Part shown: one piece after another, positions 17,284 to 20,003 of the stretch
Position numbering within the stretch: position 1 is the stretch's first letter
Layout of the letters: every line of letters begins with the position of its first letter
Assembly (NCBI GenBank): GCA_964570795.1
Contig: CAZMYZ010000007.1
Span: 1-45,475 of the forward strand
Length of the DNA: 45,475 bases
Source: an uncultured Candidatus Saccharibacteria bacterium
GTDB taxonomy: Bacteria; Patescibacteriota; Minisyncoccia; Phycocordibacterales; UBA918
Direction: 5' to 3'
The notes under the pieces: model-generated
What the model was told of the DNA's origin: nothing
Databases searched by the model: none
The model's input: the letters and a program-made list of their open reading frames with translations, nothing else
Position numbers and translations under genes: made by a program

Positions 17284-17309
17284 GCCTCGGTCGCGTACGC
17301 GACCGGGGC
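17284..17309. terminator. Bidirectional GC-rich hairpin between convergent genes
   Basis: GCCTCGGTCGCG TA CGCGACCGGGGC, with AAAAA to the left and TTATAATATT to the right. Confidence 0.65.
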
Positions 17310-17324
17310 TTATAATATTATTGC

Positions 17325-18827
17325 TTAAAACTCATCAAGGTATTGCACCTCAGCACCAAGGGAGGTGAGGCGTTCAACGAGGTTTTCGTAACCGCGATTG
17401 ATACTGTATATATTGCGTAAAACCGAGTGACCCTTGGCGCCAAGCATTGCAATGAGAAGGATGGTCGCAGGGCGCAGCGCGGGTGGGCAGATGAGTTCAT
17501 TGGGACGAAGGGTGCGCGGTCCCGTGATGTAGATACGATGGGGGTCGGCGAGCACGGTATCGGCACCGAGTTTGTCGAGTTCAGTAAAGTAGAGTGCGCG
17601 CTTTTCGTACACCCAGTCGTGAATAAGCGTCTGTCCCACTGCCTGTGTGGCAATCACCGCAAAGAAGGGGAGGTTGTCGATGTTGAGTCCGGGGTATACC
17701 GAGGGGTGAATCTTTTCATGAAGGGCAACGAGTTTCGACGGTTTTGTGGTGATGTCGACCAGTTTGGTGACACCATTTGTTGATAGGTACACTTTCGATT
17801 TTGTGTATTTGAATCCCATCTTCTCAAGTTTTAAAAGTTCAATTTCAAGAAACTCAATAGGGCATCGCTCAATTTTAATACTCGAGTTGGTCACAATCGC
17901 GGTCGCAAGGAAGAACATGGTGTCGGTAGGGTCTTCTGAAAGGGTGTACTCAATATCCTGTTTGAGTTCACTGATACCGTGGACGGTGAGTGTGGTGGTG
18001 CCGACACCCTCGATACGGACACCACATGACTGAAAGTAGGTACACATCTCCTGTACTTGGTAGTTTGCGGACGCGTATTTGATAACCGTCGTTGAAGGAG
18101 TGAGTGCTGCTGCCATGAGTGCATTTTCGGTCACGGTATCCCCTGATTCGTAGAGAATAATCTCAGTAGGTTTTTTCGGGGTTACGGATACTTTGAAATC
18201 AGTATCGGTGGTCTCGATATCGACACCAAAGTGTTCGAGCGCGTAGAAGTGTGGACGTACTGTGCGGCTGCCGAGTTTGCATCCTCCGGACTGGGGGAGT
18301 GAGAAGGAGTGGAGGGTGTGAATGAGAGGGCCAATAAACATCACGATACTGCGTGTCTTACGTGCCGCTTCGACGTCTATTTTCTTAAGCGCAAATACTT
18401 TTGGTGGTGTGAGAGTGACGTCGCTTCCGTTCCATTCCACACGCATACCGATACTCTGGAGTACTTCAATGATGCGATGTACTTCCTCAATGCGTGGTAC
18501 CCGACGCAGTGTGGTCTTTCCCTTGTTCATGAGGGACGCACAGAGAAGCCCCACGGCACCATTTTTGGAAGTAGAGGTCACCACCGTCCCATGGAGTTTT
18601 TTTCCACCCTCAATAGAGAGATTCATAGAGCCAGGGGAGAGGGTGACGAGGTTCTTCTTCAGCGCGCGTCCAAGTTTTTTGAGCATGTCGGCACTCACAT
18701 TTTGTTTGCCGCTTTCAATACGTGCAATGGCACTTTGGGTAGTTTTCAAAAGTTTTGCAAGTTCGCCCTGGGTCATCCCCTGTGTCTCGCGGAGGTCGGC
18801 TATCTGCTGTCCTATGTGTGTATGCAT
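17325..18827 (-). CDS. murA: Fusion protein: N-terminal XRE-family HTH plus UDP-N-acetylglucosamine 1-carboxyvinyltransferase (MurA)
   Basis: Residues 1-65, IGQQIADLRETQGMTQGELAKLLKTTQSAIARIESGKQNVSADMLKKLGRAL, form a classic Cro/C1-type HTH. The rest is collinear with MurA, including the catalytic-loop Cys (LPQSGGCKLGSRTVRPH) and the C-terminal INRGYENLVERLTSLGAEV. Confidence 0.8.
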   Translation of the reverse strand: MHTHIGQQIADLRETQGMTQGELAKLLKTTQSAIARIESGKQNVSADMLKKLGRALKKNLVTLSPGSMNLSIEGGKKLHGTVVTSTSKNGAVGLLCASLMNKGKTTLRRVPRIEEVHRIIEVLQSIGMRVEWNGSDVTLTPPKVFALKKIDVEAARKTRSIVMFIGPLIHTLHSFSLPQSGGCKLGSRTVRPHFYALEHFGVDIETTDTDFKVSVTPKKPTEIILYESGDTVTENALMAAALTPSTTVIKYASANYQVQEMCTYFQSCGVRIEGVGTTTLTVHGISELKQDIEYTLSEDPTDTMFFLATAIVTNSSIKIERCPIEFLEIELLKLEKMGFKYTKSKVYLSTNGVTKLVDITTKPSKLVALHEKIHPSVYPGLNIDNLPFFAVIATQAVGQTLIHDWVYEKRALYFTELDKLGADTVLADPHRIYITGPRTLRPNELICPPALRPATILLIAMLGAKGHSVLRNIYSINRGYENLVERLTSLGAEVQYLDEF

Positions 18828-18860
18828 GCGTGAGATGCTTAATTCAATAATACTTGTAGT

Positions 18861-18876
18861 ATAGCATCTATGCTAT
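18861..18876. promoter_or_regulatory. 7-2-7 palindrome ATAGCAT CT ATGCTAT, a candidate operator in the HTH-murA / mreB divergent region
   Basis: Perfect 7-nt inverted arms, 34 nt upstream of the HTH-MurA start codon. Two further palindromes are nearby: AAAAGCGCTTTT at 18904-18915 and CCTGTACAGG at 18933-18942. Confidence 0.3.
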
Positions 18877-18989
18877 GTGGGCAAGTGTGTGCTGTGGATT
18901 TTGAAAAGCGCTTTTGACCACATGCTCTGTTTCCTGTACAGGGTTTCCAGACATGCACTATACAGGTACTATTAGTCACTCTTTCGTAT

Positions 18990-20003
18990 ATGTCACATAG
19001 TTTTACTCCAAAGGTGGGCATCGACCTCGGTACAACCAATGTACTCGTGTTTGTTGATGGGAAAGGGATTCTCCTCAATGAACCCTCGGTGGTAGCGGTT
19101 TCAGGGCAGAGCGAGATTCTTGCGGTGGGGAGCGAGGCAAAGCGCATGATTGGTCGTACGCCCGATACCATACGCGCGTACCGTCCCATGAAGGATGGGG
19201 TGATTGCCGATTATCGCGTGACCGAGGCGATGCTTCGCTATTTCCTTAAAAAAGCATTGGGTAGTTTTAATATTTTTAAACCCGATGTACTCGTGTCGGT
19301 GCCGGCAGGAGTATCCTCTACGGAGAAGCGTGCAGTGATTGAGGCAACGCTGAAAGCAGGTGCACGCAATGTGTATGTGGTGAAAGAACCTATCCTTGCA
19401 GCGATTGGCGCAAAGGTTCCTATTTATGAGCCACAGGGACATATGATTGTTGATATTGGTGGTGGTACTATCGACGTAGCGGTTATTTCTCTCGGAGGCA
19501 TTGTGTCTGCAAACTCAGTGAAGTGTGCGGGGAATAAAATAGATGCAGCGATAATTGATCATGTGAAAAAGACCCATAACCTTGCAATTGGTGATAAAAC
19601 CGCCGAGGACATTAAGATTGGTGTTGGTTCTGCGCTACCGCTCGAAGAGGAAATTAGTATGAGTGTGAGTGGTCGTGATTTGCTCACGGGACTTCCGCGT
19701 ACGGTAGAAATAAAGACAAATGAAATCGTGCGTGCTATTTCACGTGAGTTGCGGGAGATGGTAAAGGCCATCAAGGATGTTTTTCAGGATACCCCACCCG
19801 AACTTGCTTCAGACATCATCGATCATGGCATTATCATGACTGGTGGTACGTCACAACTGAGAAATTTCCCCGAACTCGTAAAGCGTCGCACGGGAGTGAA
19901 AGCAACACTCGCTGACCAAGCACTCTTTTGTGTGGCAAAGGGAACTGGGGAGGCACTCCAACACCTCGATATCTACAAGCGCACTATTCTCGCTAAGCGG
20001 TAG
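18990..20003 (+). CDS. mreB: Rod-shape-determining actin homologue MreB (copy 1, monocistronic)
   Basis: VGIDLGTTNVLVFV, EPSVVA, GRTP, MIVDIGGGTIDVAVISLGG and IIMTGGTSQLRN are the actin-fold phosphate and adenosine motifs in MreB order. Confidence 0.9.
   Translation: MSHSFTPKVGIDLGTTNVLVFVDGKGILLNEPSVVAVSGQSEILAVGSEAKRMIGRTPDTIRAYRPMKDGVIADYRVTEAMLRYFLKKALGSFNIFKPDVLVSVPAGVSSTEKRAVIEATLKAGARNVYVVKEPILAAIGAKVPIYEPQGHMIVDIGGGTIDVAVISLGGIVSANSVKCAGNKIDAAIIDHVKKTHNLAIGDKTAEDIKIGVGSALPLEEEISMSVSGRDLLTGLPRTVEIKTNEIVRAISRELREMVKAIKDVFQDTPPELASDIIDHGIIMTGGTSQLRNFPELVKRRTGVKATLADQALFCVAKGTGEALQHLDIYKRTILAKR

What the first reader, a model, noticed from the sequence alone, without database searches (positions are those of the whole stretch)
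17325..18827. XRE-type helix-turn-helix domain fused to the N-terminus of MurA
A complete Cro/C1-type HTH (about residues 5-60) is joined by a short linker to a full-length enolpyruvyl transferase. The transferase retains the catalytic-loop Cys (GGCKLGSRTVRPH). MurA catalyses the first committed step of peptidoglycan synthesis and normally has no DNA-binding domain. The fusion suggests an enzyme that also acts as a repressor, coupling wall-precursor flux to transcription. It may regulate itself and the divergent mreB gene, which is inference.
Basis: partly seen in the sequence, partly recalled or inferred. Interest (0 to 1): 0.6.

Follow-up and report, generated by a model that had tools for sequence, protein, structure and literature searches.

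The report
Self-regulating MurA with fused DNA-binding domain
The only MurA gene (first committed step of cell-wall synthesis) of this tiny Patescibacteria genome really carries a fused DNA-binding domain, and a matching palindrome conserved on the gene's own promoter across two phyla indicates that the enzyme most likely shuts off its own transcription.

Summary
Window 17325-18827 (-) is one open 500-aa frame: XRE-type HTH (residues 5-61), a 7-9-residue flexible linker, then a complete MurA. It is the only EPSP-synthase-family gene in the 868-kb genome, which also has murB and four Mur ligases.

The fusion is conserved. All 20 genus relatives have it, as do about 43 of 400 sampled Patescibacteria genomes and 34 Actinomycetota loci (Streptomyces, Nocardioides, Nonomuraea).

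An 18-bp palindrome (window 18860-18877, CATAGCAT-AG-ATGCTATA) overlaps a -10-like box. It is the only invariant block upstream and occurs once in the genome. A palindrome of this kind lies upstream of 63 of 75 fused genes but only 2 of 34 unfused genes of the same MurA clade. One recognition-helix residue changes together with one operator base.

My best reading is a dimeric, catalytically active MurA that represses its own promoter (confidence 0.72). Control of the divergent mreB is not supported. Sensing of precursor flux is untested.

I found no paper on this fusion in seven searches. This scan had already noted and followed up the same fusion on several other genomes. I tested those notes here and mostly agree, except that I found no support for a toxin-antitoxin origin of the HTH.

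It is a new variant of a known kind, the enzyme-repressors such as BirA, PutA and NadR.

The parts
17325..18827 (-). HTH-MurA fusion gene, 500 aa plus stop
   Evidence: Single open frame; both domains found by Pfam and NCBIfam; only PF00275 gene in the genome.
18645..18815 (-). XRE/Cro-C1-type helix-turn-helix domain, residues 5-61; recognition helix T29-T30-Q31-S32-A33
   Evidence: HTH_3 E 3.5e-13. AF2 model has helices 5-15, 20-27, 31-38 and 46-55. R13, Q20, Q31, R36, E38, G40, Q42 and N43 are invariant in 52 fused proteins.
18627..18653 (-). Flexible linker, residues 59-67 (NLVTLSPGS); M68 matches the start Met of unfused relatives
   Evidence: pLDDT is below 50 at residues 61-65. Unfused relatives begin at the equivalent of M68.
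17328..18626 (-). Complete MurA (UDP-GlcNAc 1-carboxyvinyltransferase) domain, residues 68-500
   Evidence: PRK09369 scores 309 bits, above its cut-off. Best PDB sequence match is MurA 5ujs, E 9.5e-54. Fold matches solved MurA structures with TM 0.88-0.94 by target.
18249..18287 (-). Catalytic loop GGCKLGSRTVRPH, residues 181-193, with Cys183 and Arg188
   Evidence: Aligns with the Cys loop of solved MurA. C183 and R188 are invariant in 75 fused and 33 unfused clade members.
18860..18877 (.). Predicted operator: 18-mer CATAGCAT-AG-ATGCTATA (as read on the minus strand); perfect 7+7 inverted repeat at 18861-18876, starting 50 nt before the ATG
   Evidence: Only perfect copy in the 868-kb genome, with about 0.003 expected by chance. 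Only invariant block in the upstream alignment of 19 family members. Present in 26 of 26 family or order loci that have upstream DNA.
18858..18863 (-). -10-like hexamer TATACT, overlapping the right arm of the operator
   Evidence: Read directly from the sequence. TATAnT is kept at this position, with T in 80% of 63 loci. The consensus scanner did not report it, so it is an inference.
18879..18884 (-). Weak -35-like TTGCCC with a 15-nt spacer (inference)
   Evidence: Read directly from the sequence. In distant relatives a clear TTGACA lies 1-2 nt left of the 18-mer.
17288..17305 (-). Intrinsic terminator just after the stop codon, so the gene is monocistronic
   Evidence: 7-bp stem with 6 G-C pairs, followed by a T run.
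18990..20003 (+). Divergent mreB neighbour; context only, not shown to be regulated
   Evidence: MreB_Mbl E 5.6e-129. The synteny is lineage-specific and independent of the HTH.

Best explanation
The gene encodes a bifunctional protein. The C-terminal 433 residues are the cell's only, and active, MurA. The N-terminal XRE-type HTH binds the 18-bp palindrome TATAGCAT-NN-ATGCTATA, which overlaps the -10 element of the gene's own promoter. When enough protein is present, RNA polymerase is excluded and murA transcription falls (negative autoregulation).

The protein probably binds as a dimer held together by its MurA domains, which places two HTHs on the two half-sites one helical turn apart. The regulon is probably this one promoter.

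Shown here: the fusion, its conservation, the operator and its link to the HTH. Inferred: enzyme activity, DNA binding, the sign of regulation and the dimer.
For: (1) The frame is real and conserved.

(2) The enzyme half looks active. It is the only PF00275 gene in a genome that has murB and four Mur ligases. K88, N89, R159, C183, R188, D299, D384, R410, R452 and R478 are invariant in 75 fused, 33 unfused and (C183 apart: Cys in 7, Asp in 2) 9 ordinary MurA sequences. The fold matches MurA.

(3) The operator is specific. The genome holds one perfect copy against about 0.003 expected; hits with up to 2 mismatches number 4 against about 2.8 expected. It is the only invariant block in the upstream alignment of 19 relatives, where mean column identity is 33%.

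(4) The operator goes with the HTH. TATANC-N6-GNTATA within 250 nt upstream, with at most 1 mismatch, is found at 63 of 75 fused genes and 2 of 34 unfused genes of the same clade. In 9 phylogenetically independent fused/unfused pairs, the operator goes the same way in about 6.5 and the opposite way in 0, median p 0.016. All four fused genes with a degenerate recognition helix lack it.

(5) Specificity changes together. Helix TTQSA goes with operator base G in 29 of 30 cases. Helix TSQSA goes with T on both arms in 21 of 31 loci that have an operator, and with C on one arm and T on the other in 8 more. All 34 Actinomycetota loci carry a third variant, ATCTCAT-NN-NTGAGAT, at the same position.

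(6) The geometry fits repression. The palindrome overlaps TATAnT or TAnnnT, with TTGACA just to its left in many loci, and it usually ends 8-12 nt before the ATG.

(7) Dimer model: complex prediction with two copies scored 0.70, best of 3 controls 0.00. In the tool's calibration this mark was reached by 20 of 30 proteins solved as pairs of one chain and 1 of 23 solved as single chains. The runs share at least 82% of contacts and the partner's pLDDT is at least 87. The interface includes W405, which is invariant in this MurA clade but T, W or P in ordinary MurA.
Against: There is no direct evidence of DNA binding, of repression or of enzyme activity.

The consensus promoter scanner did not call the proposed promoter in this window. 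The -35 is weak, with a 15-nt spacer. The window's operator lies 30 nt from the ATG rather than the usual 8-12.

The helix/operator co-variation rests on only 1-2 independent switches.

The HTH has been lost at least 9 times, so the control is dispensable.

Twelve of 75 fused genes lack a match with at most 1 mismatch, although several keep a half-site.

The dimer is a model that used my own alignment, so the tool's calibration holds only roughly.
Confidence: 0.72

Rival explanations
1. The HTH controls a wider set of genes, including the divergent mreB, and so coordinates precursor synthesis with the elongation machinery.
For: mreB is divergent from the fused gene in 28 loci of the window's order. 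In compact intergenic regions (79-100 nt) the operator's left edge comes within about 50 nt of the mreB start. Two other genomes show a second operator-like site.
Against: The window genome has a single perfect site, and the sites with up to 2 mismatches are as many as chance gives. The mreB synteny is kept in 5 unfused relatives that lack the operator and is absent from about 48 other fused loci. In the window the operator is about 112 nt from the mreB ATG. Across relatives its distance to mreB varies, while its distance to the murA start is conserved. With the degenerate pattern, 10 relatives' genomes give counts no higher than the reversed-pattern control, apart from the murA site.
Confidence: 0.1
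2. The protein is purely a transcription factor. Its MurA-like domain has lost catalysis and serves only as a ligand sensor, as in BzdR or MocR/GabR-type regulators.
For: The clade is divergent: the TIGR01072 equivalog score is below its cut-off, and identity to ordinary Patescibacteria MurA is 27-37%.
Against: It is the only MurA candidate in a genome that has murB and murC-F. Every catalytic-type residue that is invariant in ordinary MurA is also invariant here. Members of the clade and ordinary MurA mostly replace each other, one copy per genome. In Nocardioides halotolerans the fusion is one of only two PF00275 genes.
Confidence: 0.05
3. The palindrome is a promoter element or the site of another factor. 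The fused HTH does something else, such as nucleoid tethering or protein contacts, or it activates rather than represses.
For: The right arm contains the -10-like TATA, so part of its conservation could come from promoter function. No binding data exist.
Against: Unfused relatives must still express murA, yet they lack the palindrome. The GCAT/ATGC core and the left arm are conserved although they are not promoter consensus. The operator changes together with the recognition helix and disappears when the helix degenerates. The fusion's HTH is the only confident HTH_3 domain in the genome. A site that overlaps the -10 argues for repression rather than activation.
Confidence: 0.1
4. The fusion is an artefact: two genes joined by an assembly or sequencing error.
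For: None found.
Against: The junction is identical in contigs of three independent studies. The architecture recurs in more than 75 genomes without internal stops, including complete genomes and cultured Streptomyces, Nocardioides and Nonomuraea.
Confidence: 0.01

Closest known systems
Bifunctional enzyme-repressors ('trigger enzymes'): BirA (biotin ligase and bio repressor), PutA (proline dehydrogenase and put repressor), NadR. Comparison from my own knowledge.
   Same: One polypeptide carries an N-terminal DNA-binding domain and an active metabolic enzyme. It binds an operator at the promoter of its own pathway or gene. DNA binding needs dimerisation.
   Different: The DNA-binding fold differs: Cro/C1-type HTH here, against winged helix in BirA and ribbon-helix-helix in PutA. 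The enzyme is MurA, for which I found no description of transcriptional self-control. Ligand control of DNA binding, which defines BirA and PutA, is untested here.
BzdR of Azoarcus sp. CIB (XRE-type HTH, linker, shikimate-kinase-like domain)
   Same: The domain order is the same: HTH_3, short linker, then a domain from an enzyme family. The NCBIfam model for this regulator family (PRK08154) hits residues 3-63 at E 1.5e-7.
   Different: As far as I know, BzdR's kinase-like domain acts as a benzoyl-CoA sensor and not as a pathway enzyme. Here the enzyme domain keeps all catalytic residues and is the cell's only MurA.
Known controls of MurA: ClpCP-dependent proteolysis with ReoM/ReoY/PrkA in Firmicutes, and feedback inhibition by UDP-MurNAc (from my own knowledge)
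   Same: They act on the same target, the amount or activity of MurA, the first committed step of peptidoglycan synthesis.
   Different: Those controls act after translation. This one would act on transcription through the enzyme itself.
Ordinary MurA of bacteria (for example PDB 5ujs, 1uae)
   Same: Same fold, Cys loop and catalytic residues.
   Different: This is a separate, well-supported clade (support 100) with 27-37% identity to ordinary Patescibacteria MurA. It has clade-specific surface residues (W405, Y226, P192) at a predicted dimer interface, and most of its members carry the fused HTH.

Membership tests
MurA (UDP-N-acetylglucosamine 1-carboxyvinyltransferase) | Scores above the curated family cut-off | tested here: inconclusive
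   The subfamily model PRK09369 scores 309.3 against a cut-off of 297, which passes. The equivalog TIGR01072 scores 300.6 against 392.7, which fails.
MurA (UDP-N-acetylglucosamine 1-carboxyvinyltransferase) | Two-domain EPSP-synthase/MurA fold | tested here: met
   AF2 model with pLDDT 90.2. Foldseek matches solved MurA structures at E about 1e-40, TM by target 0.88-0.94.
MurA (UDP-N-acetylglucosamine 1-carboxyvinyltransferase) | Catalytic loop Cys and the Lys/Arg/Asp residues of the active site | tested here: met
   C183 aligns with the loop Cys of 5ujs. K88, N89, R159, C183, R188, D299, D384, R410, R452 and R478 are invariant in the clade and, C183 apart (Cys in 7, Asp in 2), in 9 ordinary MurA sequences. 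The match to E. coli numbering (K22, C115, R120, D305, R397) is from memory and was not re-derived.
MurA (UDP-N-acetylglucosamine 1-carboxyvinyltransferase) | Pathway context: the rest of the cytoplasmic peptidoglycan pathway is present and there is no other MurA | tested here: met
   Sole PF00275 hit; MurB_C hit; four Mur ligase genes.
MurA (UDP-N-acetylglucosamine 1-carboxyvinyltransferase) | Enolpyruvyl transfer from PEP to UDP-GlcNAc | not testable with these tools
   Needs an enzyme assay or a complementation test.
XRE / Cro-C1 helix-turn-helix (Pfam HTH_3) | Scores above the Pfam gathering cut-off | tested here: met
   49.8 bits against a cut-off of 23, residues 9-61.
XRE / Cro-C1 helix-turn-helix (Pfam HTH_3) | Compact helical bundle with a recognition helix | tested here: met
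   Helices 5-15, 20-27, 31-38 and 46-55 in the model. Q31, R36, E38, G40, Q42 and N43 are invariant.
XRE / Cro-C1 helix-turn-helix (Pfam HTH_3) | Sequence-specific binding to a palindromic operator | not testable with these tools
   Comparative support only.
Bifunctional enzyme-repressor ('trigger enzyme') | The operator lies at the promoter of the enzyme's own gene or pathway | tested here: met
   The unique, conserved palindrome overlaps the -10-like box 50 nt before the ATG.
Bifunctional enzyme-repressor ('trigger enzyme') | DNA binding is modulated by the enzyme's substrate, product or catalytic state | not tested
   No computation here addresses it. The predicted dimer interface touches residues 191-195, next to the catalytic loop, which is only a hint.

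The most novel reading that the evidence does not exclude
The MurA domain's ligand or conformational state (open or closed loop; bound UDP-GlcNAc, PEP or UDP-MurNAc) sets how well the dimer's two HTHs bind the operator. The enzyme would then be a direct flux sensor that tunes its own synthesis to peptidoglycan-precursor demand. The whole cassette (gene, promoter and operator) would have moved from Saccharibacteria to their Actinomycetota host phylum.
Probability: 0.25. Interest if true: 0.8.

Novelty: new variant of a known kind. Interest (0 to 1): 0.6.

Why it matters
MurA is the gate to peptidoglycan synthesis and the target of fosfomycin. As far as I know, its known controls act after translation (proteolysis, feedback inhibition). 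A MurA that carries its own repressor domain and operator would be a compact homeostat for the first committed step of wall synthesis. It is used by many ultra-small bacteria that have almost no other regulators; in this genome its HTH is the only confident HTH_3 domain.

The same cassette occurs in cultured Streptomyces, Nocardioides and Nonomuraea, so the idea can be tested at the bench now. The repeated loss of the HTH, at least 9 times, offers natural controls.

Tried and rejected
(1) Origin of the HTH. A word-indexed search with residues 1-66 and a full HMMER profile search of 1.84 billion representatives were run. All 20 short or truncated top hits that I inspected were truncated or frameshifted HTH-MurA genes. 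The other top hits were proteins with 3-12 tandem HTH repeats.

(2) The consensus promoter scan did not report the proposed murA promoter. It reported GTGACA-17-AATAGT on the minus strand, partly inside the start of mreB. That -35 is not conserved in relatives, so I did not adopt it.

I reject them as operators.

(4) My first motif pattern had the wrong spacing and found nothing. I corrected it.

(5) RNA evidence. One contig from an RNA library matches 18309-18462 exactly. It cannot show transcription, a start site or the strand. Three metatranscriptomes of a sample that holds the DNA held next to none of the sequence's sampled words.

(6) Seven literature searches found no paper on an HTH-MurA fusion. 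Subscription journals are not covered.

(7) The test of helix/operator co-variation by independent pairs has only 1-2 pairs, so it has no statistical weight.

Full report
**Observation.** The minus-strand ORF 17325..18827 is one uninterrupted 500-aa frame. Pfam finds HTH_3 at residues 9-61 (E 3.5e-13) and EPSP_synthase at 73-487 (E 4.8e-45). The NCBIfam MurA subfamily model PRK09369 passes its cut-off (309 against 297). The stricter murA equivalog TIGR01072 does not (300.6 against 392.7). The loop GGCKLGSRTVRPH is residues 181-193 and aligns with the Cys loop of solved MurA 5ujs. An intrinsic terminator follows the stop codon. The start ATG is conserved in relatives, and stops lie a few codons upstream. 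Contigs of three independent metagenome studies cover the HTH-MurA junction without a single difference.

**The enzyme half.** The host genome is 868 kb in 31 contigs and 93.7% complete. The fusion is its only EPSP-synthase-family gene, and the genome also has murB and four Mur ligases. An AF2 model (pLDDT 90.2) shows a four-helix HTH, a disordered linker (residues 61-65, pLDDT below 50) and a MurA fold. The fold matches solved MurA structures at TM 0.88-0.94 by target. Residues K88, N89, R159, C183, R188, D299, D384, R410, R452 and R478 are invariant in 75 fused proteins and 33 unfused clade members. They are also invariant in 9 ordinary MurA sequences, except that C183 is Asp in 2 of the 9. 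I therefore take the enzyme to be active. This is an inference, not a measurement.

**Distribution and evolution.** The top 120 protein clusters (78-96% identity) all have about 500 residues and both domains. I searched 400 evenly sampled Patescibacteria genomes. About 43 have the fused form. About 24 have the same MurA clade without an HTH. Most of the rest have an ordinary MurA that is only 30-37% identical.

All 20 genus relatives have the fusion. Within the family, three states coexist: fused, unfused of the same clade, and ordinary MurA. A maximum-likelihood tree of the MurA domain alone separates the special clade from ordinary MurA with support 100. It places unfused lineages at the base of the clade. 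It needs 14 changes of the fused state, of which 9 are forced by well-supported branches. One gain followed by many losses is the simplest reading. Unfused relatives start at the equivalent of M68.

The fusion also occurs in 34 Actinomycetota loci at 53-56% identity, among them Streptomyces rimosus, S. avidinii, Nocardioides halotolerans and Nonomuraea. In N. halotolerans it is one of only two PF00275 genes.

**The operator.** On the minus strand, 50 nt before the ATG, lies CATAGCAT-AG-ATGCTATA (window 18877..18860). It is a perfect 7+7 inverted repeat whose right arm overlaps TATACT. I tested it in six ways.

- Uniqueness. It is the only perfect copy in the genome, against about 0.003 expected. 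There are no copies with one mismatch. Hits with up to 2 mismatches number 4 (the perfect copy and three with two mismatches), against about 2.8 expected.
- Footprint. In an alignment of 19 family upstream regions (mean column identity 33%), the only invariant columns are ATAGC and TGCTATA. Its distance to the ATG varies from 25 to 146 nt and the flanks are unrelated.
- Link to the HTH. The generalised motif TATANC-N6-GNTATA, with at most 1 mismatch and within 250 nt upstream, occurs at 63 of 75 fused genes and 2 of 34 unfused genes of the same clade.
- Independent pairs. There are 9 phylogenetically independent fused/unfused pairs. The operator goes the same way in about 6.5 of them and never the opposite way (median p 0.016).
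- Specificity. The window's order uses TATAGC...GCTATA and has helix TTQSA in 29 of 30 cases. Other Patescibacteria use TATATC...GATATA or TATACC, with helix TSQSA. All 34 Actinomycetota loci use ATCTCAT-NN-NTGAGAT at the same position. This co-variation rests on only 1-2 independent switches. All four fused genes with a degenerate recognition helix have no operator.
- Geometry. T two bases past the 18-mer is kept in 80% of loci, giving TATAnT. A clear TTGACA sits 1-2 nt left of the 18-mer in many distant loci. The 18-mer usually ends 8-12 nt before the ATG, which implies leaderless mRNA. The window is an exception, with 30 nt between operator and ATG.

A site between the -35 and -10 that overlaps the -10 is the classic position for a repressor.

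**Dimer.** A palindrome needs two HTHs. Complex prediction with two copies scored 0.70, with the best of 3 controls at 0.00. In the tool's calibration this mark was reached by 20 of 30 proteins solved as pairs of one chain and by 1 of 23 solved as single chains. The runs share at least 82% of contacts and the partner's pLDDT is at least 87. My own alignment was used, so these counts hold only roughly. The symmetric interface lies wholly in the MurA domain. It includes W405, which is invariant in the whole special clade, basal unfused members included, but is T, W or P in ordinary MurA. If the dimer is real, dimerisation came before the fusion and made the enzyme a ready scaffold for a dimeric repressor. 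The interface also touches residues 191-195, next to the catalytic loop. That is the only hint, and a weak one, that catalytic state could affect DNA binding.

**mreB.** The divergent mreB-murA arrangement is found only in the window's order. It occurs in 28 fused and 5 unfused loci alike. It was not found beside any of the other sampled fused loci (about 48). The operator keeps its distance to the murA start, while its distance to mreB varies. In the window it lies about 112 nt from the mreB ATG. I therefore find no support for control of mreB. In relatives with 79-100-nt intergenic regions an effect cannot be excluded.

**Comparison with what is known.** The design matches enzyme-repressors such as BirA, PutA and NadR. 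In domain order it matches BzdR (HTH_3, linker, enzyme-derived domain); the NCBIfam model for that regulator family hits residues 3-63. It differs in the enzyme involved, in the DNA-binding fold relative to BirA and PutA, and in keeping a fully catalytic domain, unlike BzdR. Seven full-text searches found no paper on an HTH-MurA fusion. Journals outside the library were not searched.

**Earlier notes of this scan.** The same fusion was flagged and followed up on several other genomes. I re-derived the operator, the fused/unfused contrast and the occurrence in Actinomycetota independently, and I agree with those notes. I could not support the claim that the HTH and its site were borrowed from a toxin-antitoxin regulator. 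All 20 short or truncated hits that I inspected from the HTH profile search were truncated HTH-MurA genes.

**Verdict.** The fusion is real and conserved. It is most likely a self-repressing, active, dimeric MurA (confidence 0.72). It is a new variant of a known kind. Interest is moderate to high, because the control is undescribed for a central drug-target enzyme and can be tested in cultured actinomycetes.

Noticed in passing
L159-L199 (Actinomycetota loci) against L043-L070, L154-L166 (Saccharibacteria): The 34 Actinomycetota HTH-MurA genes form one clade (support 99). That clade nests inside a Saccharibacteria/Saccharimonadales clade (support 100) in a FastTree of the MurA domain. This suggests transfer from the epibionts to their host phylum. 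Composition bias was flagged, so it needs a careful tree.
   Followed up: partly
L004-L111 and L159-L199, upstream of the fused genes; window 18828-18860: In most lineages the operator ends 8-12 nt before the ATG, so the mRNA is probably leaderless, with its -10 inside the operator. The window instead has 30 nt between operator and ATG and no obvious Shine-Dalgarno sequence.
   Followed up: partly
window 18904-18915 and 18933-18942: The palindromes AAAAGCGCTTTT and CCTGTACAGG lie in a stretch of about 50 nt that relatives lack. They are not conserved even in the relative with 95% protein identity.
   Followed up: yes
window 18940-18985; L004, L010, L011, L019 upstream regions: A conserved TAATAGTAC block (TACTAT on the mreB strand) lies about 20 nt before the mreB start. 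In relatives a TTGTAA/TTGAAA-like box lies 16-17 nt further upstream. This is probably the mreB promoter, separate from the murA operator.
   Followed up: partly
P0133-P0162: The best hits of the HTH profile are proteins of 300-5600 aa that carry 4-12 tandem XRE-type HTH repeats. I did not examine this unusual architecture.
   Followed up: no
G383:C1:990248-990265 and G396:C1:84943-84960: Two Saccharibacteria-type genomes each hold a second full operator-like palindrome away from murA (TATATCAGCCATGATATA and TATAGCGCTTATGCTATA). These could be extra targets in those lineages.
   Followed up: no
Family f1 genomes G428, G433 against G422, G429 and genus g1: Within one family, three MurA states replace one another: fused, unfused of the same clade, and an ordinary MurA only 28-30% identical. 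This indicates frequent displacement of this essential gene.
   Followed up: partly
window 17328-18626, residues 191-195, 224-228, 328-336, 370-380, 403-405, 428-431: The predicted symmetric homodimer interface is specific to this MurA clade (W405, Y226 and P192 conserved, different in ordinary MurA). It is also present in basal unfused members.
   Followed up: partly
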